Position numbers and translations under genes: made by a program. Below the pieces are notes generated by a model. That model was given only the letters and a program-made list of their open reading frames with translations. It ran no database searches and was not told the origin of the DNA. Of a stretch of DNA of 64,000 bases, positions 33,706 to 48,061 are shown piece by piece. Positions within the stretch are counted from its first letter, which is position 1. Each line of letters opens with the position of its first letter. The DNA is from a virus: the IMG/VR virus record IMGVR_UViG_3300009408_000003, positions 56,328 to 120,327 of that record; one strand, written 5' to 3'.

Positions 33706-35325
33706 TTATATTTCGATGGTTTCTATTTCCTTAATTAATTTAGTATAACCTTTAGAGTTAATTTCAATTATATCAAATATTCTTTCAGACCATCCAGCAA
33801 TTTGAGTAACGTTTAATGCTCTATTAAAGACTGATTTTCCACCGGTTGCTCGTATGTTTACTGAAACAGTATTACATTTAGGGTTTATTAATTTAAATTT
33901 TTTAAACAATGATTGAAATGTTCCTAATCCTGCTCTTGATGAATAATCCCATCTACCTTCACCACCATGTCCAATAACCATATCAGAAAATATAACTAAA
34001 TTATCAACTTTAGTTTTATTTTTAATAACGTCACGCAAGAAGTAATACAACCCATTTTCAGTTGCTCCACCACAATTTCTACCCATTTTAAATGAATCTC
34101 TATTATGTTCTAATAATCCTTTTGTTCTATCCATTGGTACTAATATTAATCTATCGCCAAATAATCCAACATATACATTTTTTTGAGAATATGCTAACAT
34201 TGAACCAAATAGGTTTCCAATCATTGCAGTTGTAGTTTTTGAAAATGCTGATACCTTACTTGAACCGCCACCATCACCACGTACTGAACCGGAGTGGTCA
34301 ATTAATACTGCAGTATTACCTTCTAACATTGGAATATTTTCAACTGAATATTCTAAAGCTGTTTCTAGTCCTTTCAATATTTTAGTTTTAAGTTCATCCA
34401 TGTTTGGTATTGTATCGCCTTCAAACACAATTTTACTTTTGTTATATTTAGAAACCCCAACCTTTTCAATTTCAGTATATGCCGATGCAAATCTGAATGG
34501 TAATAATTTTGATTTTAATACCTTTCTTTTGTTAGTTAATTGAGATACTGCTTCATCAACTTTATTTGGAGCTAATGTTAAAATGTTTCTTAGATTTCTA
34601 ACTAAATTCATCATAGGCATACCTTGTACATTTTCAATCACATTTGTAATTGCTTCTTTTTTGGTTTCCTTAACATCTTTTCCGGTTTCTTTAGCTGTTT
34701 TACCAGCTTTAGTCATTTCTTTTTCAAAGATTTTAGATGAATATAATCCGTCTAAAGATTCGCCATTCATTAATCTTTTGTATGCTTCCGCATTAACTTG
34801 TGTACCTTTTGGGTGCATTAAGTTAACTAAATCAACTAAAGAAATTTCTTTCTTCTCCATTTTGTATTTATCAATTAAATATGGATCTAATGATTCCAAT
34901 TTTAATTTGAATCCTCGTTTAATTGAATTAGCAATTTTTGTACTTCCTTTTGAGAAATAATAAGCTAAGATTTCACTCATATCATCTGGTCTTTGTGCGA
35001 TTTTTTTATAAAATCTTGAAGCATATGATTTTCCGGATAATCTTGGTGCTAATTCTCCTGATAACAAGTGAGTAACAGAACGCATGTGTGAATCATGTCT
35101 TAAATACAATGCAAATTTAGCAACAAATTTTTCATCAACCTTTTTTATTGCTTCTTTAATTCTATTTACAATTTCATTTTCACTTTCGTAATATGAACGT
35201 TGTAAAAAGGTAGTTAAACAAGTTGCTAACAAATCTTCTTTTGCAGTTAGTTTATAAGCTTTTTCACCCATTTCATTTATAGTAGTTGGTACTACTTTTG
35301 GTTTTCTTTTGTTAAATTTTGACAT
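33706..35325 (-). CDS. rsr: Ro60/TROVE-domain RNA-binding protein with C-terminal vWA domain
   Basis: 539 aa; INEMGEKAY, FALYLRHDSHMRS, QRPDD, LLPFRF, MIDAS-like LIDHSGSV, IFSD, GWSERIF. Confidence 0.93.
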   Translation of the reverse strand: MSKFNKRKPKVVPTTINEMGEKAYKLTAKEDLLATCLTTFLQRSYYESENEIVNRIKEAIKKVDEKFVAKFALYLRHDSHMRSVTHLLSGELAPRLSGKSYASRFYKKIAQRPDDMSEILAYYFSKGSTKIANSIKRGFKLKLESLDPYLIDKYKMEKKEISLVDLVNLMHPKGTQVNAEAYKRLMNGESLDGLYSSKIFEKEMTKAGKTAKETGKDVKETKKEAITNVIENVQGMPMMNLVRNLRNILTLAPNKVDEAVSQLTNKRKVLKSKLLPFRFASAYTEIEKVGVSKYNKSKIVFEGDTIPNMDELKTKILKGLETALEYSVENIPMLEGNTAVLIDHSGSVRGDGGGSSKVSAFSKTTTAMIGNLFGSMLAYSQKNVYVGLFGDRLILVPMDRTKGLLEHNRDSFKMGRNCGGATENGLYYFLRDVIKNKTKVDNLVIFSDMVIGHGGEGRWDYSSRAGLGTFQSLFKKFKLINPKCNTVSVNIRATGGKSVFNRALNVTQIAGWSERIFDIIEINSKGYTKLIKEIETIEI

Positions 35326-36898: not shown

Positions 36899-37130
36899 AA
36901 TTTAAAATTTTAATGTTTATGTTTTAATAATTTATACTGTAAATATACAAAATATATTTCATATATCCTAATTTATTTGCATAAAAAAAAGGGACTAAAA
37001 TTAACTAAAATTTTAATCCCCTATAGTTTAAACGATAATATCCGGCTTTTTAGAATTATCATGATTATTCATCATAATTTTCACGTATTCGGTTTTATTA
37101 GATACTGGCTTTAATTATCGTTTATTTATT

Positions 37131-37188
37131 ATAAGGGAAAAATTGATATGAGAATATATTAATTTAATTTCAATACTTACCACTTATT
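37131..37188 (-). ncRNA. Degenerate minimal member of the Y-like stem family
   Basis: 5' AATAAGTGGTAAG / 3' TTTTTCCCTTAT, lacks TACTTCG. Confidence 0.35.
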
Positions 37189-37197
37189 ATATTATTG

Positions 37198-37325
37198 GTA
37201 AGGGAATATTTAAAAGAGTGTCATTGTTTAAAAACGCAGGGTCGAATCTGCTACCTTTTATTTTGAATATAAATGCTCTACTATGAGCTAATTTTTACGA
37301 AGTACCTCTGTTTATTACCACTTGC
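37198..37325 (-). ncRNA. Y-like RNA A: conserved stem enclosing a tRNA-like core with UCA anticodon
   Basis: CAAGTGGTAA..AGAGGTACTTCG-[TAAAAAT, D arm GCTC/GAGC, TTTAT-ATTCAAA-ATAAA, imperfect T arm, GTTTTTA]-ACACTCT..TTCCCTTA. Confidence 0.65.
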
Positions 37326-37384
37326 CGATATTTTAAAGAACGTTTTTGTTTCTTAATTCATATTGAATAGAAAAACATTTTTTG

Positions 37385-37458
37385 TATTCCGAGTAGGACT
37401 TGAACCTACGACCACCAAGGTATAAGCTTGGGACTCTGACCAACTGAGTTATCGGAAT
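37385..37458 (-). tRNA. tRNA-Ile(TAT)
   Basis: Cloverleaf; CCAAG-CTTATAC-CTTGG. Confidence 0.9.
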
Positions 37459-37662
37459 AGTTATGAAGAGTCATTGTGGCAAGAGAACCGAGACTCTTCA
37501 TTGTTTGTTATAGATTATTTTTTGTTGTTACTTGGATAAACCTATTTTCTTAAAAATTCCATAGTTTAGACGAAGTCAAACTTTAACCTTATTATGTCTG
37601 ATTTCAATTGTTTTGAATGAGCAATACTGGATACATAATCATCCATAGCGTAAAAACAACTC

Positions 37663-37740
37663 TGGTAGCGAGAGCAGGATTCGAACCTGCGTCGTTCAGC
37701 TTATGAGACTGAGCTGGGGCCATCTCCAGTCTATCTCGCG
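37663..37740 (-). tRNA. tRNA-Met(CAT), initiator-like
   Basis: Mismatched 1:72 pair, CT-CAT-AA loop, encoded CCA. Confidence 0.9.
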
Positions 37741-37869
37741 ATTTATTTTTTAAAAAATTAAACATTGTTGTAAACTACGTTAGTAGTATCAGGAATATTT
37801 TCACTGGGTTTCCTGTTTTTATGCCAGATTTATTTTTTATAATTTCATACTGAAGTATGATTTTTTAAA

Positions 37870-37941
37870 AATAAGAGAAATTTGTAATGAGTGTTTTTTT
37901 CATTTAGACAATCGAAGTAACTCATTTACTTACTACTTATT
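37870..37941 (-). ncRNA. Y-like RNA B: minimal stem-only member
   Basis: AATAAG-TAGTAAGTAA-ATGAGT-TACTTCG..ACTCAT-TAC-AAATTTCT-CTTATT. Confidence 0.65.
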
Positions 37942-37953
37942 TATATTTTATTG

Positions 37954-38026
37954 AGCTTTTAATGAGATTTGAACTCATGATCTCGTTCTTACCAAAAACG
38001 TGTTCTACCTGCTGAACTATAAAAGC
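37954..38026 (-). tRNA. tRNA-Thr(GGT)
   Basis: CGTTT-TTGGTAA-GAACG. Confidence 0.9.
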
Positions 38027-38032
38027 AATTTA

Positions 38033-38144
38033 AGAGTTTACTAGAGGCTATTGGGGGCTATCAGCGGAGAATATTTTCCTCTGTTAATTCAGATTCCCAA
38101 TCTTAATTTCCGTCTAATCTAGCCTTTTACGCTTGATAAACTCT
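38033..38144 (-). ncRNA. Unidentified structured RNA (~112 nt)
   Basis: Nested stems AGAGTTTA/TAAACTCT, AGGCTA/TAGCCT, TTGGG/CCCAA. Confidence 0.5.
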
Positions 38145-38248
38145 GTATTAAATTATAATCATGATTGTTCGGTCACAGTATGTTCTTCTAAAACTAATAC
38201 CCCCTCTGTATTTTGATTATCTTTACAGATATTTTAAATAAATTTTTG

Positions 38249-38323
38249 TACTCCAGATGGGGTTCGAACCCATAAAATTTAGTTTCTAAAACTAAAATGT
38301 CTAGCCATTTGCATCACCGGAGC
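38249..38323 (-). tRNA. tRNA-Leu(TAG), short variable loop
   Basis: TTAGT-TTTAGAA-ACTAA; no long variable arm. Confidence 0.85.
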
Positions 38324-38334
38324 ATATAAAATAA

Positions 38335-39420
38335 AATGCTGAGATTACACATTTTCTGTTAATACTTTTGTTTTCGTACCGCCAAACTGCTAAGTTTTTT
38401 GTTAAAAACGTATCCACTCATAACTTATGAGTTTATCAACATTACCGCCTTTTTTAAAGAGTGGCATTTCTCTTATCATAATAGAACTACTCGATTTTTG
38501 TTTTTCTCCCAACCTTTAGAGCTGTTAGTGGTCGCTAAACCATTAGATGCAAACTCTAATCAATTATCATCCACCTTGCGAGTTTCAGATAAACTACATT
38601 CCCGAATGGGTGTAGTATTAGGTAATTTGTTTTCTATTATTGTTAGGGTCTTTACGTTTTATCAATTTAATGATGGGATGTATAGGGTTTGAACCTATGA
38701 CACCTTGTGTTTAAAAACAAGTGCTCTACCAACTGAGCTAACTTCCCTAAAGTTAATTTTTCACTTCGATGTGCCCTAACGGTTGTTTCATACTCTTTTG
38801 AAGTACAAAATGCAACACACCAACTGTGTTTCAGATTACCAATCCTACTGTACGGTACTTCTAGTCTACACCGGAAAACAATAATGTTCCTTTCAACTAT
38901 AATACTGATTAATTGCTCTAATACTGGCGGTACTTGAACTCAAAATCTACAACTTATTCTGTTTTGGTTTTATTGAGGTAGTATCTTATAAGATAGGTAC
39001 TAACCTATTTGAACTCACCGAACGGCTCTGTTCTTATCCTTTCCTAAGGGTCTTACTTTAATTCAATTTCCTAAAAAATTGAAAACTTTCAATTTACTCC
39101 ATATTCACCATCGGTAATTAATGATGCCCCGTATAGGTTTACGGTTGAAATGTTGCTTGTTTAAACAAACCTAGTTATAGGCGGGTAGATGTGAATTTCT
39201 ATCCCTTTCGATATCTCACGATACCATATTTTTGTCTTAACCGAAGTTAAAGTAGGATGTTAAGCCACCCTTGTATCTTTATTAATGCAGTATATTCATT
39301 ATTTCTTATGTAAGTACCAATGTATAAATAATTATTTGACAATTACATGAGGTTTCAATGTTTATGTCGGATATGTACCATTATAATGATACATAATTAA
39401 CATTATTAAATAAATGACTT
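38335..39420 (-). ncRNA. Giant structured RNA, GOLLD-like, with embedded tRNA (5' boundary uncertain)
   Basis: No sense-strand ORF, many helices, UUCG/GCAA/GAAA loops, AGAG-AAATGCCA-CTCT..AAAAAAGGC pseudoknot at 38445-38476; family call from remembered motifs, not searched. Confidence 0.65.
38674..38747 (-). tRNA. Atypical tRNA with Val-like body and 8-nt anticodon loop (TTTTAAAC)
   Basis: GGGAAGTTAGCTCAGTTGGTAGAGC..CTTGT-TTTTAAAC-ACAAG..GGTTCAAACC..CATCCCA. Confidence 0.75.
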
Positions 39421-39549
39421 TAATAATACATTAATGTTTTTCAATATTTTAATGAACGTATTTTTTTAATAGTTTTGTGTTACAAAGATACGAAAAAATA
39501 TTTAAATATCCTAATTTTTTCTTAGTTTTTTTTAATTATTTTTAAAGTA

Positions 39550-39738
39550 TTAAATTCTACTTTTCAAAGTTGTTATCTCTGCTTCAATTCGTCTAATATC
39601 TCTATCAGATAATTTTATCATATTAGTACCATGTTTTTCTGGTTTTGTTTTACGTTTCAATTGTGACTGTAAACGTTTTAACGCTGACAATCTTCGTTCA
39701 GTTACTAATACGGTATGTGATACTTTTCGTTTATTCAT
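39550..39738 (-). CDS. Small basic hypothetical protein
   Basis: 62 aa. Confidence 0.6.
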   Translation of the reverse strand: MNKRKVSHTVLVTERRLSALKRLQSQLKRKTKPEKHGTNMIKLSDRDIRRIEAEITTLKSRI

Positions 39739-39742
39739 AATG

Positions 39743-39931
39743 TTATAAATTATTGTTTAATTTATTTTTTGGATGTTTATACATAATAAATATAATAATT
39801 GGTATTATAATAAGGAATGGTTCATTATATATTAATGAAACAATTCCACAACTTGAAAGTGTTGATAATATAATTAAAAATATTTTTTGTAATAGTGTAA
39901 ATGATTTAAAATGCTTTATAATGTTATTCAT
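39743..39931 (-). CDS. Small membrane protein
   Basis: 62 aa, 2 TM. Confidence 0.5.
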   Translation of the reverse strand: MNNIIKHFKSFTLLQKIFLIILSTLSSCGIVSLIYNEPFLIIIPIIIFIMYKHPKNKLNNNL

Positions 39932-39977
39932 TAATTTTTTATAAAAACTTGGGTTGATAAAAATTTTTTAGCAATTG

Positions 39978-40051
39978 AGGAATCGGCAGGATTCGAACCT
40001 GCGAACATCTGGGTTGCAACCAGTTCCCTTAAACCACTCGAGCACAATTCC
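39978..40051 (-). tRNA. tRNA-Cys(GCA)
   Basis: CTGG-TTGCAAC-CCAG, U73. Confidence 0.92.
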
Positions 40052-40057
40052 ATAAAA

Positions 40058-40150
40058 AAATAGTAATATTTTTAGCTCCATTGGTCTCTGCACGTTACCA
40101 CAGATTTACTCGTTCGAGGCAGACTTTGTACCAAGTATTGATTACTATTT
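40058..40150 (-). ncRNA. Unidentified structured RNA 1
   Basis: AATAGTAAT/ATTACTATT, TTGGT/ACCAA, TCTGC/GCAGA, CTCG/CGAG. Confidence 0.55.
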
Positions 40151-40153
40151 TTT

Positions 40154-40289
40154 AAAATATATAAAGTTTGTGTCACTAATCACAACTACGTACTTATAGG
40201 TTTATATTATTTTATGTGGTATTTACCCACCCGCAAGTTGTACGTTACCCTACTCGAATAGTGTTTTTGTTTATGACTCTATATATTTT
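40154..40289 (-). ncRNA. Unidentified structured RNA 2
   Basis: AAAATATATAGAG/CTTTATATATTTT, ACGTAC/GTACGT, GTGG/CCAC. Confidence 0.5.
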
Positions 40290-40296
40290 AATTAAT

Positions 40297-40391
40297 ACAT
40301 AACATAAAAGAATACCTTAATTTCTTTTTTATGATTTATTTCCGTGATGTTTTCTCACCTTGTCTGAGCTAGGATTTTTATAATGTTATGT
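40297..40391 (-). ncRNA. Unidentified structured RNA 3
   Basis: ACATAACAT/ATGTTATGT closing stem directly after promoter 40468. Confidence 0.4.
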
Positions 40392-40511
40392 AAAAAATAA
40401 GATTGTTCTGTTTATATCTATTTGAACTATTATTGATGTCTATCTTATTTTTCTTTTTTTTATTTACATAAAGATACGAAAAAATATTTACATATCCTAA
40501 TTTTATTTCAA

Positions 40512-40970
40512 TTATTTTACTTTTAATTTTAAATTAATTATTGATGCCCACGCAAAATCATCTGTTGGTATAAACTCAATATCTGATTTAGATAAACTAT
40601 ACCAGCATAAATCACAATTCCATAACGTATTAATTATACCCTTTTTAAATTTCTTTAAATTTTTAGGATATACTTTAGGAACATTACATTTTAATATAGG
40701 AGGCAAATATTTATTAGCCATTTTATTCTGATGCTGTAACCATTTTTTATGACAGTCACTAGTTATATCATCAGTACTACTAGTGTTGCCACCCCAACTA
40801 TATGAATTTTTTAATTTAGCATCAAGTAATTCACATTTTTTAGTATCCGATTTTGATAATTTAACAATATTGTTAGATAATATCATATCAGTTGATAATG
40901 TTGGTAAATATTTAAAAAGTATATATTCACCAACATATATTCCTAATTGATAGTCAAGATTTTTGCTCAT
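40512..40970 (-). CDS. Hypothetical protein
   Basis: 152-aa ORF. Confidence 0.7.
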   Translation of the reverse strand: MSKNLDYQLGIYVGEYILFKYLPTLSTDMILSNNIVKLSKSDTKKCELLDAKLKNSYSWGGNTSSTDDITSDCHKKWLQHQNKMANKYLPPILKCNVPKVYPKNLKKFKKGIINTLWNCDLCWYSLSKSDIEFIPTDDFAWASIINLKLKVK

Positions 40971-40994
40971 TTATGTTTTTTTATAAATTTAATA

Positions 40995-41504
40995 TTAATC
41001 AAAGAATAAAAAGTCTTTCCATTCTTCTGGAATTTCAAAATTTACTTTTTTCATTAATAATAAATAATGAGGTTTTTTTGGTTGAGGATGTGGTTTTCCA
41101 TATTCTTCGATATCCAAATCGGCTTTTTCACCGTTACAAGTTTTACATGCAGTAACCAAATTTTCCCATGTATTTTGGCCACCTTTTGATTGTGGAATAA
41201 CATGGTCTAATGTTAGGGTTCTTCGATTAGAACTACCACAATATACACATTCGTAATTATCTCTTTTGTAAATATTTTCTCTGTTTAAAGAAACTTTGTT
41301 ATGTACATTTACATAATTATTTACTTTGATAATTGATGGCTTTTTAATATCAAGATCTTTATTTACTAATCCAAAACTTACTGGATGTTCAGCTATGATT
41401 TGCGCATTACCTTTATAAAAAATAACGAATGCACGTTCTGCAGAAATTATACTTCTTGCCATATAGCTGTTATCTACTACAAGACATTTTCTAAAATTAC
41501 TCAT
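40995..41504 (-). CDS. HNH endonuclease (McrA-like)
   Basis: RDNYECVYCG..TLDHVIPQSKGG..WENLVTACKTCN. Confidence 0.92.
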   Translation of the reverse strand: MSNFRKCLVVDNSYMARSIISAERAFVIFYKGNAQIIAEHPVSFGLVNKDLDIKKPSIIKVNNYVNVHNKVSLNRENIYKRDNYECVYCGSSNRRTLTLDHVIPQSKGGQNTWENLVTACKTCNGEKADLDIEEYGKPHPQPKKPHYLLLMKKVNFEIPEEWKDFLFFD

Positions 41505-41529
41505 GATTTTTTATTTTTAGGTTATACAT

Positions 41530-41724
41530 TTATTTTGTTTTGTACTGTGTTTTTCTGTTGTACTTCCAGGTTTTATACATTCTACGTTCTGATGGCCATT
41601 TACCAGTTTTTAATATTGCAATTTTTTCGCAATACCTATTGTCTTTCCAATTATATCGAATAAGTTTATATTCTCGATTATTTGTAATATGCTTTGTACC
41701 AGAACGACTAAAATTTATACTCAT
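41530..41724 (-). CDS. Small basic hypothetical protein
   Basis: 64 aa; RMYKTWKYNRKTQYK. Confidence 0.6.
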   Translation of the reverse strand: MSINFSRSGTKHITNNREYKLIRYNWKDNRYCEKIAILKTGKWPSERRMYKTWKYNRKTQYKTK

Positions 41725-41791
41725 TTGCTATAGATTTAGGTTAGCAAATCTACAAGTTATCAAATAATTTTTTCATTTTTTTAAAATTTAG

Positions 41792-41863
41792 CACGGGAGG
41801 AGAATTACGATATCTCGACACCTAGTTTTGGAGACTAGTGCTCTGCCTCTGAGCTACACCCGC
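41792..41863 (-). tRNA. tRNA-Trp(CCA), atypical T loop
   Basis: CTAGT-CTCCAAA-ACTAG. Confidence 0.88.
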
Positions 41864-41867
41864 TTGT

Positions 41868-42103
41868 TTATTTAAACCATACTGACGATTCTTCAAAATC
41901 ATCATCCTTAAAAGTTTTATATGTTAATCCCTCTTTTTTTAAAATTTTACCAACTGATGATTCTATGTAAACTCCAAATACTTTACCATTATATCCTTCT
42001 TTAGCTGATTTTTTTATTCCTTAAAAATTTGTTTAGCTTTATCTTTACTTTCTATTATGGTTTTATTATTTTTTATACTTACTAGTTTATCGTTCCAATT
42101 CAT
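41868..42103 (-). pseudogene. Frameshifted small ORF
   Basis: MNWNDKLV..KQIF / GIKKSAKEGYNGK..VWFK*. Confidence 0.5.
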
Positions 42104-42246
42104 AATTTTATTTAATAACGCCAAGTATCAGTTACATAACATAAAATAAGTTTGTTCATACTACTATTGTTTTTAAGATATATTACATAGTAAATATACA
42201 AAAAAAAAATTAATATATCCTAATAAAAATTAAGATATTTTTTTTG

Positions 42247-42319
42247 AATTCCCGATGGGAGTCGAACCCACAACCGTAAGTTTAGAAAACTTATGCTCTT
42301 CCAGTTGAGCTACGGGAAC
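42247..42319 (-). tRNA. tRNA-Arg(TCT)
   Basis: TAAGT-TTTCTAA-ACTTA. Confidence 0.92.
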
Positions 42320-42324
42320 AGATA

Positions 42325-42478
42325 CCCAAATTACGTTTTGGGTAAGCACGTGAAATATTTAATTCCTAGAACTAAAAATTTCAGCAGGCAACTAAGCTGC
42401 TAATTTTAAGTTGCTATTTATTGCGATATTAATCTCTTTTTACTCACTACTTTAATGTCAAACACCAGAGCCTGACCC
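42325..42478 (-). ncRNA. ssrA: tmRNA coding piece (permuted two-piece gene); tag AINSNLKLAA* at 42424-42392
   Basis: 5' GGGTCAG + CTGG..TTTGAC D-loop-like; tag ends LAA; stop enclosed by AAAATT-AGCAG/CTGCT-GA-AATTTT helix; 3' end uncertain. Confidence 0.88.
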
Positions 42479-42955
42479 AATTACTATTTCAAAAAATTCA
42501 AACAGTTCCGATTCACTCATATTATTCTTTGTCAAATTCACGGTAACACTTGTAAATTGTATGTTATCTAATGAATATGGTTTGGAACTATATATTCTAT
42601 CTAAAGATACCTTACGATTATTTGATATGGAATTGTAATGTAATTCATGTGGTAATACCAACCCTATATTTGTATATACGCGTTTACCACCTTGTTTTTT
42701 CCAAACATCAAGCAATTGTAATTCTGTAGTCTCATTGGTAGAATGAGTTTTTCTTCTACGAGTTCGTCTTTTAAATTCTTTCATAGAAGATAATAAAAAC
42801 TGTTCTTCGGTAATAAGAGTTGGCTGTGTATTTCCTGTAAACCAATTTTCTTTACCAATAGTTTTAAGTCGTTTTAGTTGTAGAGGTGATTTTCCAGAAC
42901 AACTTAATGAACAATAAAATTTGGTGCTACCGTTTCTAATTTTACGATTAATCGT
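42458..42955 (-). pseudogene. Degenerate HNH-like homing endonuclease inside the tmRNA intervening segment
   Basis: Frame of track ORF 42458-42784 is open upstream (INRKIRNGSTKFYCSLSCSG) without ATG; SLDRIYSSKPYSLDNIQF..VNLTKN resembles SLDRIDSSKGY..NIQ..N. Confidence 0.7.
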
Positions 42956-42970
42956 AAAATAAAAAATTAG

Positions 42971-43033
42971 TGGATCAGTCGGGAGTTGAACCCGAGTCCA
43001 TCAAAACGTTTATAAACATCAATGATTAAAAAT
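42971..43033 (-). ncRNA. ssrA: tmRNA acceptor piece (permuted two-piece gene)
   Basis: GGAC-TCGGG-TTCAACT-CCCGA-CTGATCC-A; pairs with GGGTCAG including G3.U70. Confidence 0.88.
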
Positions 43034-43035
43034 CG

Positions 43036-43120
43036 TGCTCCTAGCAGGATTTGAACCTGCATCCTCGAATTAAGGAATAGTTTTTGAAACTATCGTGTTT
43101 ACCAATTTCACCATAGAAGC
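43036..43120 (-). tRNA. tRNA-Leu(CAA)
   Basis: ATAGT-TTCAAAA-ACTAT, long variable arm. Confidence 0.92.
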
Positions 43121-43222
43121 AATTAAAATATAATGTCAATCCCCCCTAATTTAGATTGAGCGTATCTCCTGCCCATTATATTATGATATTTTTAATTTAA
43201 TTCAGATTATCAACTGAATTTG

Positions 43223-43308
43223 TACCTCCGACAGGATTTGAACCTGCACACCCATTTCTGAATAATAGGGCTTAAACCTACTGTGTCTACCAATTCCACC
43301 ACGGAGGC
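43223..43308 (-). tRNA. tRNA-Leu(TAA)
   Basis: GTAGG-TTTAAGC-CCTAT, long variable arm. Confidence 0.92.
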
Positions 43309-43412
43309 GTTTACACTCTACCTTTTTTAAATCCAATAGGTAGAGTATCTTCTTTTTTTGTTTTTCTCATCATTTAAGTACTTCTGAAGAAGTACAGAAA
43401 AACAAACTTTCA

Positions 43413-43488
43413 GGGTGAAAGACCGGACTCGAACCGGCGACCTTCTGAATCACAATCAGACGTTCTAGCCAACTGAACTACAATCACC
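43413..43488 (-). tRNA. tRNA-His(GTG)
   Basis: TCTGA-TTGTGAT-TCAGA, G-1/C73. Confidence 0.92.
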
Positions 43489-43491
43489 ATA

Positions 43492-43566
43492 TGGTGGCGA
43501 TAAGTGGATTTGAACCACCGACTTATTCCGTATGAAAGAATTGTTCTACCCCTGAACTATATCGCC
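43492..43566 (-). tRNA. tRNA-Met(CAT) elongator (or Ile2)
   Basis: ATTCT-TTCATAC-GGAAT, encoded CCA. Confidence 0.9.
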
Positions 43567-43587
43567 TAGAGTATGGTAGTGTGTACA

Positions 43588-43896
43588 TCACTTACGGTTA
43601 CCATACGTTTTACCCGTTTTTTTCTTTTTATTTATGGTTCTTTCATATACTTCATCACTAGTATACATCCAATTCATGTTTAATTGTGCTTCACCAATTA
43701 ATAATTTCCATAAACCTATTTTAGATACTTCGGTATACCTAAAAATATAAATGAGCCAAATTAATGGTACTTTTAAATAATATCTGTATCTCCAAATCTG
43801 TTCAAGTTTGTTACAATTTTGAAATCGTTTTTTTCTGCTTAAATATTGATTAATTAATATAATCAATATCAATATTAAACTTATAATTAAAATCAT
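43588..43896 (-). CDS. Hypothetical membrane protein
   Basis: 102 aa, N-terminal TM. Confidence 0.6.
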   Translation of the reverse strand: MILIISLILILIILINQYLSRKKRFQNCNKLEQIWRYRYYLKVPLIWLIYIFRYTEVSKIGLWKLLIGEAQLNMNWMYTSDEVYERTINKKKKTGKTYGNRK

Positions 43897-44089
43897 ATTT
43901 TTGTTTTTGTTTTTAGTATTAATTTATTTATTTCTAATAAAGAGTCATCAGAAATTTCGTTTTGTAACTTAGTTACTATTAATTTATATATAATAGTATT
44001 ACGTTGTAACTCCAATAGTTTCATAACTTCTTTTGTAGTATATTTTTTCATAATATAACTATTTTTTAAAAATTAATATTTATTTATTG

Positions 44090-44178
44090 CGGAAAAAAAG
44101 AGAATCGAACTCTCACCGGGGGTTATTCCGGACTTGTTTAGCAGACAAGCTCAACAAACCAATATTTGACTTCTTTCC
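44090..44178 (-). tRNA. tRNA-Ser(GCT)
   Basis: CTTGT-CTGCTAA-ACAAG, long arm, G73. Confidence 0.92.
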
Positions 44179-44183
44179 AAATT

Positions 44184-44370
44184 TTATTTTAATATTCTAC
44201 CAAGTCGAAATCCTTTTGGGATTTCATTACCCTTGTAGATTTTTTTACTTATTCTTTCATTTGTAATTCAACACGTACCGTATTGATAATTTTTATATCC
44301 AGTTCCATTGTCTTTATTGGGTTCACTTATTTTCTTTTTGTTTCCTCGGTATGATGGTTATCTGTCCAGT
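44184..44370 (-). pseudogene. Homing-endonuclease C-terminal remnant 1 (NUMOD3-like)
   Basis: HHTEE/KKKISEPNK..YQYGTC*ITNERISKKIYKGNEIPKGFRLGRILK*. Confidence 0.65.
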
Positions 44371-44498
44371 TAATCAATCTTAATTGGTATTCGGCCACCA
44401 ATATAAAAATTTATTATTTTTTAAATTAGTGGTTTTGCACAAAAAAATATAATTCGTCTTTCATGCATTAAATATGAAAAATATATTTTAAGTAAAAG

Positions 44499-44573
44499 AG
44501 CGGGTAGTAAGATTTGAACTCACGACATTTAACTTGGAAGGCTAACGTTCTGACCGGACTGAACTATACCCGC
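44499..44573 (-). tRNA. tRNA-Gly(TCC)
   Basis: TTAGC-CTTCCAA-GTTAA. Confidence 0.9.
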
Positions 44574-44580
44574 ATTTTTG

Positions 44581-44653
44581 TATTCACGGTGGGCTACGAT
44601 CCCACTACCTCTACTATATCAGAGTAGTACTCTACCAATTGAGCTACGTGAAT
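44581..44653 (-). tRNA. tRNA-Ile(GAT)
   Basis: CTACT-CTGATAT-AGTAG. Confidence 0.9.
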
Positions 44654-44686
44654 GTTTTATAATAAAAAAAATATCCGTTAATATAG

Positions 44687-44759
44687 AACACCCGGTGAGA
44701 TTCGAACTCACACTCTTTTGGGTCGTAACCAAAGGCTTTTCCATTTAAGCTACGGATGT
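44687..44759 (-). tRNA. tRNA-Arg(ACG)
   Basis: TTTGG-TTACGAC-CCAAA. Confidence 0.92.
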
Positions 44760-44771
44760 ATATTTTTATTG

Positions 44772-44845
44772 CGGTTTGAGTGGGACTCGAACCCACAAAT
44801 CTTCTGTTTAACAGACAGGTGCTTTACCAATTTAGCTACCAAACC
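44772..44845 (-). tRNA. tRNA-Asn(GTT)
   Basis: CCTGT-CTGTTAA-ACAGA. Confidence 0.92.
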
Positions 44846-44931
44846 AGTTTAGAATGGTTGGAACTGAAATATCAACTTAGCAACAGTGTCTTAACAGGAG
44901 CTATTATTAATTTTCGTTACATTCTAAAGTG

Positions 44932-45004
44932 TGGATGAATAGGGAATCGAACCCTAATCTTTGGTGCTTCAAACCAACGCCTTGACCTACTTGGCAATTC
45001 ATCC
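44932..45004 (-). tRNA. tRNA-Phe(GAA)
   Basis: TTGGT-TTGAAGC-ACCAA. Confidence 0.9.
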
Positions 45005-45050
45005 TAGTTTGGGTTTTTACTGAAACCGCGAGAAAACAGTACTATTTTTT

Positions 45051-45284
45051 CTATTGGTGATACGGAATATATCTACCAAATTCATCTTTTCTAAGAGATT
45101 GTTTTTCTACACGAAATTTCCACTCTTTAAATCTTGATAATGATGATTTAAGTTTTGCTTGTTTTGTTGCAACCTCAAATGATTTTTCAAGACTTGGTTC
45201 TGTTGTTTCAATAAAATAATAGGGAGCTTGAACGTTAGTCTGACTAACAGGAACTACTCTCCAAATTCTTAATTGTTTTTTCAT
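45051..45284 (-). CDS. Hypothetical protein
   Basis: 77-aa ORF. Confidence 0.65.
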   Translation of the reverse strand: MKKQLRIWRVVPVSQTNVQAPYYFIETTEPSLEKSFEVATKQAKLKSSLSRFKEWKFRVEKQSLRKDEFGRYIPYHQ

Positions 45285-45329
45285 AAATTATCTGATGATA
45301 ATTTACGAACTGTTTAAAATGTTTTCCAT

Positions 45330-45557
45330 TTATTTTCTATATGAACTTGGTACATCCCAATAACATCTATAATCAAATATATTATATGAAGCATATATTT
45401 TTTTATATGAATTACCGTTTGACAAATATTTATTAAACCTACGTACAGCTTTATTTGCTAAACGTTTACTTTTTTTTGTTCCGTTAGGCCCTCGTGAATA
45501 ATCATTTAGCCAAGGATTCTTACTTCTGCTTCTACTCATAATTAGTACCAAAGCCAT
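45330..45557 (-). CDS. Small basic protein (likely start MSRSRSK)
   Basis: KRLANKAVRR..YKKIYASYNIFDY. Confidence 0.6.
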   Translation of the reverse strand: MALVLIMSRSRSKNPWLNDYSRGPNGTKKSKRLANKAVRRFNKYLSNGNSYKKIYASYNIFDYRCYWDVPSSYRK

Positions 45558-45772
45558 GTGGCATTGTGTTTATGACTAGTGTTACCAAACTCTAAAAAAT
45601 CTAAGTCATATCCTAGTATAACTTTATGAAGTGAACTTTTAGTTTTAGTTTTATTGGTTTTGCTAATTAGTTTACAATACCAAGTTGGAGCGGTTCTACG
45701 ATTCATACTGCCAGGTATTTGTTTTCTGATTTGTGCTTCAGTCCATGCCCAGCGTTTTTTTCGTTGTTTCAT
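45542..45772 (-). CDS. Small basic protein
   Basis: 76-aa ORF. Confidence 0.6.
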   Translation of the reverse strand: MKQRKKRWAWTEAQIRKQIPGSMNRRTAPTWYCKLISKTNKTKTKSSLHKVILGYDLDFLEFGNTSHKHNATWLWY

Positions 45773-45848
45773 TGTTTTGATATTTTTTATTAATACTTAA
45801 AACATAGCGAATTTAAATTTGTTCATAATTAATTATTTTTGATTTTTG

Positions 45849-45922
45849 TAACGCCGACGGGCTACGATCCCGCAATCTCCAGGTTGAAAGCCTGACGAGT
45901 TACCCAATTACTCTACAGCGTC
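45849..45922 (-). tRNA. tRNA-Glu(TTC)
   Basis: TCAGG-CTTTCAA-CCTGG. Confidence 0.9.
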
Positions 45923-46145
45923 ATTTTGTTAATAAATATTAAAAATATAAGTAAACCTTCGTTTCTCACATTTATTTTTAGCTTTCCATGAGGGACTCTA
46001 ATCCTATATTTAATTCTATCAATTATATCAACTAAATTGACCATATTTAATGGTATTAAAGAATTATTTCCCAGTATATTATTGATGTCGTACATCTTTA
46101 AACGTTGCAGATATACAGTTTCTCAATACACAGAATATTTTGCAG

Positions 46146-46216
46146 TGGGCCAGGTAGGGATCGAACCTACTCGCTAGAATTTTACAGATTCGGCCGTTAC
46201 CTTAACTGTCAGACCC
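46146..46216 (-). tRNA. tRNA-Tyr(GTA), short variable loop
   Basis: CGAAT-CTGTAAA-ATTCT; no long arm. Confidence 0.8.
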
Positions 46217-46285
46217 ATAATCATTGTTTCGGGTACAATGAAAAAAACCTTTATATAATTCATACCAACGGTATAAATTTAAAAA

Positions 46286-46427
46286 ATTAAGAGAAAGATT
46301 AGGTGAGTATTATTGTTTGTTTTCAATTTTCAAGATTGATACCTTAACCATTTGACTTATTTCCCCAACGGGAAATATCGGACTCGAACCGATAAATACG
46401 AAGTAACTCATTCTATTACTACTTAAT
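46286..46427 (-). ncRNA. Y-like RNA C: conserved stem enclosing a circularly permuted tRNA-Ser(UGA)
   Basis: ATTAAG..ATGAGT-TACTTCG-[ATCGG-TTCGAGT-CCGAT; ATTTCCC-GTTG-GGGAAAT; D arm; TCAAT-CTTGAAA-ATTGA]-ACTCAC..TTTCT-CTTAAT. Confidence 0.8.
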
Positions 46428-46560
46428 TATTTTTTCATTTTTCTACCAAGTCGAAATCCTTTTGGGATTTCATCGCCTCGATATATTTTTTTACTTATTG
46501 TTTCGTTTGTAATCCAACAAGTACCAAATTGAGAATTGTTAATATCAATTTGTTTACTTT
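46427..46560 (-). pseudogene. Homing-endonuclease C-terminal remnant 2
   Basis: NSQFGTCWITNETISKKIYRGDEIPKGFRLGRKMKK*. Confidence 0.65.
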
Positions 46561-46580
46561 TCTTTATCTTTTTATCTATT

Positions 46581-46823
46581 TTACTCATATCCATTTTCTT
46601 TAGTAATTACTGATTCTTTTGGTGTTATTGAACCAATATTTTTAGAGTCATAATTATCAGTAAATGGTTTCGTTACTGAATCAAAATCTTCCCAAACACT
46701 ATGTCCATTTCTAATTCATTCTACAAGATACTCTTTATACGGATTTTGATAGATATTTTTTTCTCTTCCTGCTGTATCCCTTTCTATTAGAAAGTCTCTC
46801 CTTATTTGTTCATACTTATTCAT
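46581..46823 (-). pseudogene. 80-codon ORF with one in-frame TGA (46718-46716)
   Basis: MNKYEQIRRDFLIERDTAGR..EYLVE*IRNGHSVWEDFD..VITKENGYE*. Confidence 0.6.
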
Positions 46824-46849
46824 TTGTTTTGTATAAAACTAATTAAAAG

Positions 46850-46922
46850 CGGCGTACATGGGGGTCGAACCCACAATCCTCGCAGTGACAGTGCGATATG
46901 TTACCAACAACACCTCTACGCC
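46850..46922 (-). tRNA. tRNA-Asp(GTC)
   Basis: TCGCA-CTGTCAC-TGCGA, G73. Confidence 0.92.
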
Positions 46923-46934
46923 AAATTAAATAAA

Positions 46935-47083
46935 ATTCAAGAGAAAGATTAAGAGAGTATGATTGTTTTAAAATCTCGCCATACACTTTATATTATTAGT
47001 GGTGAGAATTGATATCGAACCAACATTTAACATTTATGAATTGGGAGTTTCCGAAGTAACTCTTACTTATTAGTACTTAATTC
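46935..47083 (-). ncRNA. Y-like RNA D: conserved stem enclosing a T-arm and an acceptor-like hairpin
   Basis: AATTAAG..AAGAGT-TACTTCG..GTTGG-TTCGATA-TCAAT, TCTCACCA/TGGCGAGA..ACTCTC..TTTCT-CTTGAATT. Confidence 0.7.
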
Positions 47084-47375: not shown

Positions 47376-47386
47376 ATAATCTTTTG

Positions 47387-47470
47387 CTTCTTACATAGGA
47401 CTCGAACCTATACACCGAATTAACGGCATTCCCATTCGGGAATTGCGTTTACCACTTTCGCCAGTAAGAA
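47387..47470 (-). tRNA. Class II tRNA-like RNA with the anticodon loop collapsed to a tetraloop
   Basis: Leu-type D arm and variable arm; ATTCCC-GAAT-GGGAAT. Confidence 0.7.
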
Positions 47471-47837: not shown

Positions 47838-47873
47838 AATTTTAATTTTCTTAAAAAAATTACCATCATGTTG

Positions 47874-47969
47874 TCAGAGTAAAGGGATTCGAACCCTTGG
47901 AGGACAACCTCTTGAAGTCCTCACTGGTTTCCAAGACCAGCCATTTTAGCCAAACTCATGCATACTCTG
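47874..47969 (-). tRNA. tRNA(TGG) with very long variable arm (Pro anticodon, class II body)
   Basis: CTGGT-CTTGGAA-ACCAG; GAGGAC/GTCCTC arm; C1-G72, A73, A37. Confidence 0.8.
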
Positions 47970-47979
47970 TTATTAAAAG

Positions 47980-48061
47980 TCTAGGTGGTGAGGTTCGAAC
48001 TCACGTAAAAATACTCCTGTTCCCAAAACAGGCGGGTTCATCCATCTGCCCGAGCACCTAG
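47980..48061 (-). tRNA. tRNA-Pro(TGG)
   Basis: CCTGT-TTTGGGA-ACAGG, C1-G72, G37. Confidence 0.88.

What the first reader, a model, noticed from the sequence alone, without database searches (positions are those of the whole stretch)
37131..47083. A family of candidate Y RNAs: one conserved stem, interchangeable tRNA-like cargo, upstream of Ro60
Four elements (A 37198-37325, B 37870-37941, C 46286-46427, D 46935-47083; weaker one at 37131) share 5' AAG-TRG-TAA..(T/A)GAG-KTACTTCG and 3' ACTC(A/T)..TTYCYCTT. They show compensatory changes (TGAGT/ACTCA vs AGAGT/ACTCT; AATAAG/CTTATT vs ATTAAG/CTTAAT). Cargo differs: none (B), whole tRNA in normal order (A), whole permuted tRNA (C), T arm plus hairpin (D) (seen). 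Bacterial Y RNAs lie near and co-oriented with the Ro60 gene and join a Ro-binding stem to a tRNA-mimic module (established). This stem does not match the canonical YrlA Ro-binding motif, so it may be an undescribed Y RNA class or a modular tRNA-decoy carrier (inference).
Basis: partly seen in the sequence, partly recalled or inferred. Interest (0 to 1): 0.88.

Follow-up and report, generated by a model that had tools for sequence, protein, structure and literature searches.

The report
Phage Y RNAs with swappable tRNA cargo
A large phage carries, among its tRNA genes and upstream of its own Ro60 gene, four to five small RNAs that share one conserved folded "handle" but display different tRNA look-alikes; they are most likely a divergent, uncatalogued branch of the Y RNAs that partner Ro60.

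Summary
Elements A (37195-37328), B (37868-37943), C (46284-46429) and D (46934-47083), all on the minus strand, share one scaffold. A decayed copy E (37128-37190) lies next to A.

A covariance model built from 20 cargo-free relatives finds all four elements and 84 members in 34 sources. Pairing holds in 92.7% of cells, with 273 compensatory cells against 82 in shuffles. The 7-nt loop UACUUCG is nearly invariant.

The handle tracks Ro60:
- 24 of 26 motif-bearing IMG/VR contigs encode a Ro60 homolog, against 0 of 7 contigs with chance hits.
- All 59 mapped elements are co-oriented with Ro60, and the nearest lies within 2 kb in 16 of 20 contigs.
- The neighbouring HD gene (9/26) and RtcB (1/19) do not track the handle.

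The 539-aa protein is a true Ro60 by TROVE domain, MIDAS motif and predicted fold.

Rfam's YrlA model misses the window but hits relatives on the same handle below threshold. I therefore read this as a new variant of the phage Ro60/Y-RNA system. Ro60 binding is untested.

This scan has noted the same kind of handle-plus-cargo RNA beside Ro60-like proteins on other phage DNA, with a different handle (ACAGCAA).

The parts
37868..37943 (-). Element B: cargo-free handle RNA (about 76 nt), lying between tRNA-Thr and tRNA-Met
   Evidence: R1 gives 79.9 bits, E=1.7e-13. Exact GAGTTACTTCG core. The fold shows the terminal stem with a bulged U.
37195..37328 (-). Element A: handle RNA carrying a normal-order tRNA-like module (37228-37297, anticodon UCA)
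   Evidence: R1 gives 48.4 bits. Rfam tRNA gives 44.4 bits, and the alignment shows a 7-bp A/U acceptor stem, no G18G19 and a 6-nt T loop. ARAGORN makes no call.
37128..37190 (-). Element E: decayed copy that keeps only the bulged terminal stem (AAGUGGUAA ... UUCCCUU)
   Evidence: R1 gives 24.5 bits, E=0.016, with filters off, and the core is missing. It was not found with default filters at E<=0.01.
46284..46429 (-). Element C: handle RNA carrying a complete circularly permuted tRNA-like module. The order is T arm, a 7-bp acceptor hairpin closed by GUUG, D arm, then anticodon arm (UGA).
   Evidence: R1 gives 57.8 bits. ARAGORN calls anticodon UGA on all 3195 in-silico rotations that gave a call. 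The acceptor stem pairs 7 of 7. There is a weak Rfam tRNA hit of 23.7 bits at 46289-46366.
46934..47083 (-). Element D: handle RNA with a T-arm-like hairpin plus a long imperfect hairpin. The handle is slightly degenerate (AAGUACUAA).
   Evidence: R1 gives 38.8 bits, E=9e-5. Exact core. It sits 6 nt after tRNA-Val and 12 nt before tRNA-Asp.
33706..35325 (-). Ro60 (TROVE + vWA) gene, 539 aa: the presumed protein partner
   Evidence: Pfam TROVE gives 52.5 bits against a cut-off of 23. PHROG 850 'RNA-binding protein' matches residues 1-522, E=1.7e-37. A PDB sequence search hits the Thermus phage phiLo Ro60, E=4e-12. The AF2 model (pLDDT 76) has its top 13 PDB matches all to Ro60/Rsr, TM up to 0.75. 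D343-x-S345-G-S347, T422 and D448 are invariant in 12 homologs.
37331..37343 (-). Promoter-like motif ACGTTCTTTAAAA just upstream of A
   Evidence: Exact match. GTTCNTT lies 13-36 nt (14 of 17 at 13-22 nt) before 17 of 80 family members against a background of 1.6% (p about 1e-14). It marks the first element of tandem clusters. Promoter function is inferred.
36989..37022 (-). Intrinsic-terminator-like hairpin followed by a T run, closing the non-coding RNA unit after A and E
   Evidence: 14-pair stem followed by TTTTTTAT.

Best explanation
A, B, C and D, plus the relic E, are paralogous small non-coding RNAs of a phage Y-RNA family.

Each RNA is closed by the same handle, which has four features:
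- A terminal helix formed by the 5' and 3' ends, carrying a conserved bulged U (AAG-U-RG / CY-CUU).
- An internal loop (URA opposite UU).
- A short variable helix that continues into GAGU/ACUC.
- An almost invariant single-stranded UACUUCG opposite an A-rich strand.

The phage's own Ro60 ring protein most likely binds this handle, as Ro60 binds the bulged stem and the CGA-containing 5' strand of known Y RNAs.

The handle presents a variable module: nothing, a tRNA in normal order, a sealed and circularly permuted tRNA, or tRNA pieces. One Ro60 could therefore assemble a set of particles, each offering a different tRNA look-alike to tRNA-binding enzymes. Candidates include RNase P, the CCA-adding enzyme, modification or repair enzymes, exonucleases, and host anticodon nucleases.

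The likely purpose is quality control, repair or protection of the tRNA pool during infection.

Shown here: the RNA family and its covarying fold, its tight genomic coupling to Ro60, the identity of Ro60, and the cargo anatomy.

Inferred: transcription and processing from the tRNA operons, Ro60 binding, and the role of the cargo.
For: - **Structure.** 92.7% of cells pair. There are 273 compensatory cells against 82 +/- 8 in shuffles and 63 or fewer in slid controls. Helix 1 is 97.9% paired and all 7 of its pairs covary.
- **Conserved unpaired positions.** Bulged U 98%; A14, G26, U28, A29, C30, U32, C33 and G34 100%. This pattern is typical of a protein-binding site.
- **Ro60 coupling.** 24 of 26 contigs found by DNA pattern alone have a Ro60 homolog of 32-81% identity, against 0 of 7 chance-hit contigs. 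All 59 elements are on Ro60's strand and 47 lie upstream. The nearest is within 2 kb in 16 of 20 contigs, and within 4 kb in 12 of 15 contigs of at least 100 kb.
- **Specificity controls.** The neighbouring HD gene occurs in 9 of 26 contigs and RtcB in 1 of 19.
- **Restriction to phage-type DNA.** Of 48 pattern hits in 185,579 prokaryote genomes, only 3 are real. All 3 are multi-copy clusters on metagenome-assembled (MAG) contigs, and 2 of these genomes also encode Ro60.
- **Same pairing in GenBank phages.** It is seen in cr111_1, csAssE-Sib and megaphage LR745206, and weakly in Bacillus phage G, which has three CAGUUACUUC hairpins directly upstream of gp540 Ro60.
- **Bridge to YrlA.** Hits of 27-39 bits fall on T-AS-D cargos on the same handle, and CUUCGAA aligns to ggCgaA.
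- **Precedent.** Bacteria have two or more Y RNAs, one tRNA-like and one a plain hairpin (PMC4201824). The Thermus phage Ro60 binds two upstream Yrl RNAs (PMC12135203).
- **Ro60 identity.**
Against: - No binding, transcript or processing data exist for any member.
- The window has no Rfam YrlA or Y_RNA hit even at E<=10, and the canonical GNCGAAN0-1G motif is absent. Only CG is invariant; CGAA occurs in 13 of 63 members.
- One complete 325-kb phage (G019/L033) carries two handle RNAs but no TROVE protein.
- In some contigs, and for C and D in this window, the elements lie 11-19 kb from Ro60.
- Ro60 genes and handle RNAs both tend to sit in tRNA-rich RNA islands, so part of the proximity could be indirect.
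- Single-sequence folding energies are not better than shuffles (z from -1.5 to +0.1). The case for structure therefore rests on covariation.
Confidence: 0.75

Rival explanations
1. The handle is a maturation or production device for unusual tRNAs. On this view the normal-order and permuted modules are real tRNA genes. RNase P and 3' processing, with CCA addition, release or open them to give working tRNAs; for the permuted ones these would be two-piece. Ro60 would be at most a chaperone.
For: - 15 normal-order cargos are called tRNA by ARAGORN, and one scores up to 72.8 bits with Rfam.
- In normal-order members the handle's invariant G lies at or directly before position 1 of a 7-bp acceptor stem.
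- All 10 correctly parsed complete permuted modules have exact 7-bp acceptor stems. In 6 of 11 (5 parsed, plus L030b read by eye) the loop begins with N-CCA (e.g. G-CCA-AAACA).
- M. smegmatis YrlA, which has a 7-bp stem, is cut by RNase P and receives CCA in vivo (PMC4201824).
- This phage encodes RtcB.
Against: - About 40% of members carry no cargo, yet they keep the handle best.
- Many cargos lack an anticodon arm or an acceptor stem.
- Embedded tRNAs have odd acceptor stems made almost entirely of A-U pairs. A in this window lacks G18G19 and has a 6-nt T loop.
- RtcB is absent from 18 of 19 other family contigs.
- No bulge-helix-bulge motif or splicing endonuclease is known in bacteria (10.1101/312249).
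- This view does not explain the coupling to Ro60.
Confidence: 0.12
2. The handle RNAs work without Ro60. They would bind another protein or act alone, for example as decoys for host tRNA-cleaving defence nucleases. They would sit near Ro60 only because both belong to a phage RNA island of tRNAs, GOLLD and repair genes.
For: A complete 325-kb phage has the RNAs but no TROVE gene. Some elements are 11-19 kb from Ro60. The window's island also holds GOLLD, 31 tRNAs, an HNH endonuclease and an HD hydrolase.
Against: - The handle was found almost only in Ro60-bearing contigs, although tRNA arrays are common in large phages that lack Ro60.
- In many contigs a single element sits 90-260 nt upstream of Ro60.
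- Other neighbouring genes do not co-occur with the handle.
- There is sequence and structure similarity to YrlA, a proven Ro60 ligand.
Confidence: 0.09
3. These are not trans-acting RNAs. They would be cis elements such as terminators or attenuators of the tRNA/Ro60 operons, or DNA-level repeats of a mobile element.
For: The terminal stem is often followed by a T run: 15 of 80 against a background of 10%, p=0.03. Copies occur in tandem.
Against: - The conserved unpaired loops and three covarying helices go far beyond what a terminator needs.
- Strand-specific G-U pairs are tolerated.
- No target-site duplications or transposase association were seen.
- The cargo is tRNA-like, and the copies diverge in a way that preserves RNA pairing.
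Confidence: 0.03

Closest known systems
YrlA / YrlB Y RNAs of bacteria and mycobacteriophages (Rfam RF02553; Chen et al. 2014, PMC4201824; Wang et al. 2018, 10.1101/312249)
   Same: - Encoded beside Ro60 and co-oriented with it.
- 5' and 3' ends pair to close the RNA.
- A conserved CG(A)-containing motif on the 5' strand.
- A tRNA-like module in T arm, closed acceptor stem, D arm order.
- Several paralogs per genome, one tRNA-like and one a plain hairpin.
- Members with a 7-bp acceptor stem look like RNase P substrates.
- Relatives on the same handle give sub-threshold YrlA hits.
   Different: - No window element reaches even E<=10 against RF02553.
- The motif is UACUUCG rather than GNCGAAN0-1G.
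- The handle has an extra outer bulged helix with a conserved U bulge.
- The same handle carries complete tRNAs attached in three ways: at the acceptor end, at the variable-arm position with a real anticodon arm, or at the anticodon-stem position as in YrlA.
- There are up to 7 copies per genome.
Thermus phage phiLo Ro60 with Yrl1/Yrl2 (PMC12135203; PDB 9KOP, 9L5Y)
   Same: A phage-encoded Ro60 with two or more small RNAs directly upstream. These RNAs have a stem-bulge-stem form with a CGAA-type motif, and binding was shown by EMSA and cryo-EM. This is the closest solved relative of the window's Ro60 by sequence and by fold.
   Different: About 20% protein identity. The phiLo RNAs are not described as carrying tRNA modules. 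No shared handle sequence was tested here, because no phiLo sequence was held.
Metazoan and Deinococcus Y RNAs (Rfam RF00019; Stein et al. 2005 as cited in PMC4201824)
   Same: A bulged terminal helix formed by both RNA ends, with a single pyrimidine bulge on the 5' strand. The design is modular, with a Ro-binding stem plus a variable effector loop.
   Different: There is no sequence similarity and no Rfam hit. The bulge is U rather than C. The cargo is tRNA-derived.
Handle-plus-cargo RNAs beside Ro60-like DUF2828 proteins, noted earlier by this scan in other phages (e.g. e1-5642329, e1-5790182; unpublished AI notes)
   Same: Arrays of small RNAs in phage tRNA clusters that share one closing handle, carry swappable tRNA-derived cargo, and are linked to a Ro60-shaped protein.
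   Different: Those handles are a short stem plus ACAGCAA, and the protein is a distant Ro60-like fold. Here the handle is AAGURGUAA...GAGUUACUUCG...ACUC...UUCYCUU, and the protein is a true Pfam TROVE Ro60. The earlier notes were not re-tested here.
Circularly permuted tRNA genes of red algae and one archaeon (Soma et al. 2007, as discussed in 10.1101/312249)
   Same: In element C the 3' half of a tRNA precedes the 5' half, and the acceptor stem is initially closed by a loop.
   Different: Those precursors are cut at a bulge-helix-bulge motif and ligated into a continuous tRNA. No such motif or enzyme is evident here. The junction lies in the variable region and is occupied by the Ro60-type handle.

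Membership tests
Y RNA (functional class: Ro60-bound ncRNA) | Encoded near the Ro60 gene and on the same strand (within 4 kb, as used by Chen et al. 2014) | tested here: met
   A, B and E lie 1.8-2.6 kb upstream of Ro60 on the same strand. C and D lie 11-11.8 kb upstream on the same strand. Family-wide, 59 of 59 elements are co-oriented, and the nearest is within 4 kb in 17 of 20 contigs.
Y RNA (functional class: Ro60-bound ncRNA) | 5' and 3' ends pair into a stem containing a conserved bulged helix, with a variable module at the other end | tested here: met
   Covarying helix 1 with the bulged U conserved in 98% of members. Cargo ranges from about 13 to 120 nt.
Y RNA (functional class: Ro60-bound ncRNA) | Physically bound and stabilised by Ro60 | not testable with these tools
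   Needs EMSA, RIP or a genetic test.
YrlA (Rfam RF02553) | Covariance-model score at or above the gathering score of 69 bits | tested here: not met
   No hit at E<=10 on any window element. Relatives on the same handle score 27-39 bits.
YrlA (Rfam RF02553) | GNCGAAN0-1G motif near the 5' end | tested here: not met
   The family motif is UACUUCG. CG is invariant, A follows in 26 of 63 members, and CGAA occurs in 13 of 63. Infernal aligns CUUCGAA under ggCgaA in L035.
YrlA (Rfam RF02553) | tRNA-like domain in T arm, closed acceptor stem, D arm order, with the Ro-binding stem in place of the anticodon stem | tested here: not met
   In the window, B has no cargo, A is in normal order, C has T-AS-D plus its own anticodon arm, and D has a T arm plus a hairpin. 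The canonical layout does occur on this handle in relatives L005, L008, L015, L018 and L035.
tRNA (Rfam RF00005) | Cloverleaf scoring above 29 bits with canonical D and T loops | tested here: inconclusive
   A scores 44.4 bits but lacks G18G19, has a 6-nt T loop, has an acceptor stem made almost entirely of A-U pairs, and gets no ARAGORN call. C is recognised only after in-silico rotation.
Ro60 / TROVE protein (the partner gene) | TROVE HEAT-repeat ring followed by a vWA domain with a MIDAS motif | tested here: met
   Pfam TROVE gives 52.5 bits against a cut-off of 23. DxSGS...T...D is invariant in 12 homologs. The AF2 model matches 13 Ro60/Rsr structures over about 530-590 columns, TM 0.51-0.75.
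Permuted tRNA genes processed to continuous tRNAs | Bulge-helix-bulge junction cut by a splicing endonuclease and sealed by a ligase | not tested
   No BHB search was run. RtcB is present in this phage but in only 1 of 19 other family contigs.

The most novel reading that the evidence does not exclude
The complete permuted modules have an exact 7-bp acceptor stem and a true anticodon arm. In six relatives they also have an encoded N-CCA immediately after the acceptor 3' strand. The most novel reading is that RNase P opens these modules and the end is trimmed, or CCA is added. The result would be two-piece tRNAs with a free CCA end that can be charged, whose 'variable arm' is the Ro60 handle. 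In other words, Ro60-tagged split tRNAs would either take part in translation or act as aminoacylated decoys during infection.
Probability: 0.1. Interest if true: 0.85.

Novelty: new variant of a known kind. Interest (0 to 1): 0.66.

Why it matters
Y RNAs are thought to work as adaptors, with one end holding Ro60 and the other recruiting an effector. Only a handful have been studied.

This phage family shows the adaptor idea very plainly. One conserved handle carries interchangeable cargo, including whole tRNAs attached in three different geometries and with many different anticodons.

It offers several things:
- A defined candidate Ro60-recognition element (bulged helix plus UACUUCG) that can be mutated.
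- A covariance model that finds members Rfam misses, and shows that some annotated phage "tRNAs" (e.g. tRNA-Tyr and tRNA-Lys of csAssE-Sib) sit inside Y-RNA handles.
- A natural series for testing what the tRNA-like module is for: recruitment of repair or processing enzymes, decoys for anticodon nucleases, or spare tRNAs.

It also links Ro60 biology to the tRNA arms race between large phages and their hosts.

Tried and rejected
- **Rfam.** Searches at gathering and E<=10 thresholds gave no YrlA or Y_RNA on the window elements.
- **Megablast.** The 16-kb region has no match in GenBank phages.
- **R1 with filters off.** This split C and D into half-matches because of their long cargo. Default banded search aligned them full length.
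- **One-mismatch core hits.** Both were set aside as chance: 43722 lies on the opposite (+) strand within the span of ORF 43588-43896 (not inspected), and 58953 lies in a small ORF.
- **Pattern-scan false positives.** Eight IMG/VR hits are chance matches in coding sequence without a 3' partner, and their contigs lack Ro60. 45 of 48 hits in prokaryote genomes are chance.
- **RtcB or the neighbouring HD hydrolase as the real partner.** Rejected, because neither co-occurs with the handle.
- **Single-sequence folding z-scores.** Uninformative in this AT-rich RNA.
- **My first regex parser.** It mis-assigned several 3' ends, and ignored strand. One search corrected this, and the CM coordinates are the ones reported.
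- **A typed comparison with human Y1 RNA.** Not attempted, because no reference sequence was available from a tool.
- **Literature.** Five searches found no description of this handle or of crAss-type Ro60 RNAs. Two reviews (PMC10870794, PMC6047535) are not held.

Full report
**Setting.** The window is the 3' 64 kb of a 120-kb linear virus record. Around the finding, every gene called here is on the minus strand. The region holds:
- a 539-aa ORF at 33706-35325;
- an array of 31 tRNA genes from 37.3 to 48.9 kb;
- a GOLLD RNA at 38336-38823 (152 bits);
- an HNH endonuclease inside the array;
- an RtcB ligase gene at 59249-60412.

The closest GenBank relatives of the 539-aa protein are in crAss-type gut phages: cr111_1 at 56% identity, and csAssE-Sib at 52%, where it is annotated 'Ro sixty-related protein'.

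GAGKTACTTCG occurs exactly four times, all on the minus strand, against 0.5 expected. Read on that strand, each copy sits in the same frame:

5' NNAAG-U-RG-UAA, 5-7 variable nt, GAG(U/G)-UACUUCG, cargo, an A-rich stretch, ACUC, 5-7 variable nt, UU-CY-CUUNN 3'.

A fifth, weaker copy (E, 37128-37190) directly follows A. It keeps only the outer stem.

**It is a real, widespread RNA family with a covarying fold.**
- A pattern built from the two 5' motifs pulled 36 loci out of IMG/VR. About eight of these are chance hits in coding sequence.
- Twenty cargo-free members align cleanly (A1). RNAalifold predicts three helices with compensatory changes in 12 of 15 pairs.
- The covariance model R1, built from that alignment, finds 84 members in 34 sources. 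All four window elements are found as full-length matches.
- On the 81 distinct sequences, 92.7% of cells are paired. There are 273 compensatory cells against 82 +/- 8 in shuffles and at most 63 when the 3' partners are slid.
- The unpaired positions are the most conserved: the bulged U (98%), A14, and UAC(U)UCG (100%, 100%, 100%, 94%, 100%, 100%, 100%). I read this pattern as a protein-binding surface, not just a stable hairpin.
- Single-sequence folding energies are no better than shuffles in this AT-rich RNA. The structural case therefore rests on covariation.

**The handle travels with Ro60.** The pattern scan used no protein information.
- 24 of the 26 true-family contigs encode a homolog of the 539-aa protein, 22 of them strongly, at 32-81% identity.
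- None of seven chance-hit contigs does.
- Mapping 59 elements on 20 contigs, all 59 share Ro60's strand and 47 lie upstream. The nearest lies within 2 kb in 16 contigs, often only 90-260 nt before the start codon. In contigs of 100-430 kb the nearest is within 4 kb in 12 of 15.
- Two other genes in this phage's RNA region do not track the handle: the HD phosphohydrolase between A and Ro60 (9 of 26) and RtcB, about 12 kb beyond the array (1 of 19).
- In 185,579 prokaryote genomes only three of 48 pattern hits are real. All three are multi-copy clusters on MAG contigs, and two of the three genomes also encode Ro60.
- R1 also finds members upstream of Ro60 in cr111_1 (38 bits) and in megaphage LR745206 (50.5 bits, about 400 nt upstream). 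In csAssE-Sib it finds two members, and reading the sequence shows a third.
- Two of the csAssE-Sib members coincide with that record's annotated tRNA-Tyr and tRNA-Lys.
- Bacillus phage G has three weak tandem matches with a CAGUUACUUC core in the gap directly before its TROVE gene gp540.
- Exceptions exist. One complete 325-kb phage has two handle RNAs and no TROVE gene. In two contigs, and for C and D here, the distance to Ro60 is 11-19 kb.

**The protein is a true Ro60.**
- Pfam TROVE scores above its cut-off.
- PHROG 850 matches over residues 1-522.
- The only PDB sequence hits are to the Thermus phage phiLo Ro60.
- Twelve homologs keep an invariant DxSGS...T...D MIDAS motif.
- The AlphaFold model (pLDDT 76) has its 13 best PDB matches all to Ro60/Rsr from phage, frog, human and Deinococcus, aligned over essentially the full length.

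**Cargo in the window.**
- B has about 20 nt between the handle halves.
- A holds a normal-order cloverleaf (Rfam tRNA 44.4 bits) with anticodon UCA. It has an acceptor stem made almost entirely of A-U pairs, no G18G19 and a 6-nt T loop, and ARAGORN does not call it.
- C runs T arm, acceptor 3' strand AUUUCCC, loop GUUG, acceptor 5' strand GGGAAAU, D arm, anticodon arm. After rotation in silico, ARAGORN calls a tRNA with anticodon UGA whatever the junction trimming. The handle therefore occupies the variable-arm position.
- D has a T-arm-like hairpin and a long imperfect hairpin.

**Cargo across the family.**
- About 25 members have no cargo.
- Canonical YrlA-type T-AS-D modules occur without an anticodon arm.
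- 13 modules are complete permuted tRNAs with nine different anticodons.
- About 15 are normal-order tRNAs called by ARAGORN. In these the handle's invariant G lies at or directly before position 1 of the acceptor stem.
- Some normal-order modules have truncated acceptors, in which UUCG pairs with CGAA.
- All 10 correctly parsed complete permuted modules have exact 7-bp acceptor stems. In six of eleven the closing loop starts with N-CCA (five parsed, plus L030b read by eye).

**Relation to known Y RNAs.** Chen et al. 2014 (PMC4201824) defined YrlA by three features:
- proximity to Ro60 and the same orientation;
- a 5' GNCGAAN0-1G motif;
- a T-AS-D tRNA-like domain.

They also showed that bacteria have two or more Y RNAs, one tRNA-like and one a plain hairpin. 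The M. smegmatis YrlA, with a 7-bp acceptor stem, is cut by RNase P and receives CCA.

Wang et al. 2018 (10.1101/312249) showed that the Ro-binding stem of YrlA replaces the anticodon stem.

The Thermus phage study (PMC12135203) showed that a phage Ro60 binds two upstream Yrl RNAs with a CGAA motif.

The window elements do not match RF02553. However, T-AS-D members on the same handle in relatives score 27-39 bits (E down to 3e-5). Infernal places CUUCGAA under YrlA's ggCgaA, and the A-rich ACACU under AaAcU. The family is thus best seen as a divergent sister of YrlA/YrlB with three differences:
- its own handle;
- more paralogs per genome;
- a wider cargo repertoire, including complete tRNAs attached at three different points of the tRNA L-shape.

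**Expression context (inferred).**
- B and D are wedged between tRNA genes, 6-12 nt from their ends. tRNA processing would therefore release them.
- A is preceded by ACGTTCTTTAAAA. That motif lies before 17 of 80 members (14 of the 17 at 13-22 nt from the match start), against a background of 1.6%, and marks the start of tandem clusters.
- A strong terminator-like hairpin follows E.

**Mechanism and rivals.**
- **Best reading (0.75).** These are Y RNAs. Ro60 binds the handle, and the cargo offers tRNA look-alikes to tRNA-recognising proteins, giving a panel of Ro60 particles for tRNA surveillance, repair or decoy functions during infection.
- **tRNA-production device, possibly yielding two-piece CCA-ended tRNAs (0.12).** The 7-bp stems and encoded CCA favour this. 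The many empty or incomplete cargos, the odd acceptor stems and the absence of RtcB in relatives count against it as the general explanation.
- **Ro60-independent RNA sharing an RNA island (0.09).** The specificity of the co-occurrence disfavours this.
- **Cis element or mobile repeat (0.03).** The covariation and conserved loops disfavour this.

**Novelty.** I found no paper or Rfam family describing this handle. Phage Ro60/Y-RNA pairs are already known. This scan has also noted analogous handle-plus-cargo arrays, with a different handle (ACAGCAA), beside Ro60-like DUF2828 proteins in other phages (not re-tested here). I therefore rate this a new variant of a known kind.

Noticed in passing
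window 38336-38823 (-): GOLLD RNA (152.2 bits, just above the gathering score of 150). It has an embedded tRNA-like gene at 38674-38747 that ARAGORN reads with a 4-base anticodon (ttaa). A much stronger GOLLD (288 bits) sits next to handle RNAs in relative L030.
   Followed up: no
window 59249-60412 (-): RtcB RNA ligase gene (Pfam E=3e-106). This recalls the bacterial rsr-yrl-rtcBA association, but RtcB was found in only 1 of 19 other handle-bearing phage contigs.
   Followed up: partly
L008, L030, L035, L039, L060, L063 (e.g. L008:5100-5246): In six complete permuted tRNA modules, and in two YrlA-type modules of L035, the loop closing the 7-bp acceptor stem begins with discriminator + CCA (G-CCA-AAACA and similar). 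This looks as if a free CCA 3' end is meant to be exposed after RNase P cleavage. Window element C has GUUG instead.
   Followed up: partly
L002 (GenBank OR575929.1) 17497-17913: In phage csAssE-Sib there are three handle RNAs directly upstream of the Ro60-related gene. Two of them contain the record's annotated tRNA-Tyr and tRNA-Lys, so these 'tRNAs' are embedded in Y-RNA handles.
   Followed up: partly
L091 (Bacillus phage G, JN638751.1) 4988-5494: Three tandem hairpins with a CAGUUACUUC(G/A) core lie in the 1-kb gap before TROVE gene gp540. They match R1 weakly (25, 23 and 16 bits). A separate sub-threshold YrlA hit (36 bits) lies at 3553-3639. This suggests the UACUUC motif is shared by distant phage Ro60 systems.
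   Followed up: partly
L033 (IMGVR_UViG_3300037424_001372): A 325-kb phage contig rated 100% complete carries two handle RNAs (one empty, one with a tRNA-Pro-like cargo). No TROVE or Ro60 match was found with either the protein or the Pfam query.
   Followed up: partly
window 37331-37343, 39447-39459, 54161-54173 (-): The motif ACGTTC(T/A)TTAAAA recurs at the heads of non-coding RNA clusters, both here and in relatives. It may be a phage promoter element.
   Followed up: partly
window 35710-36216 (-): A 168-aa HD-type metal-dependent phosphohydrolase (PHROG 990, E=9e-23) lies between the Y RNAs and Ro60. It is adjacent to Ro60 only in the closest relatives.
   Followed up: partly
window 47386-47470, 47873-47969, 47979-48061 (-): Odd tRNA calls: one with a 2-base 'anticodon' (aa), and two long tRNA-Pro(UGG) genes of 97 and 83 nt. 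These may carry introns or be degenerate.
   Followed up: no
window 40995-41504 (-) and 27300-27983 (-): An HNH homing-type endonuclease lies inside the tRNA array, and a calcineurin-like phosphoesterase lies downstream of Ro60. Both fit an RNA-repair or mobile-gene-rich island.
   Followed up: no
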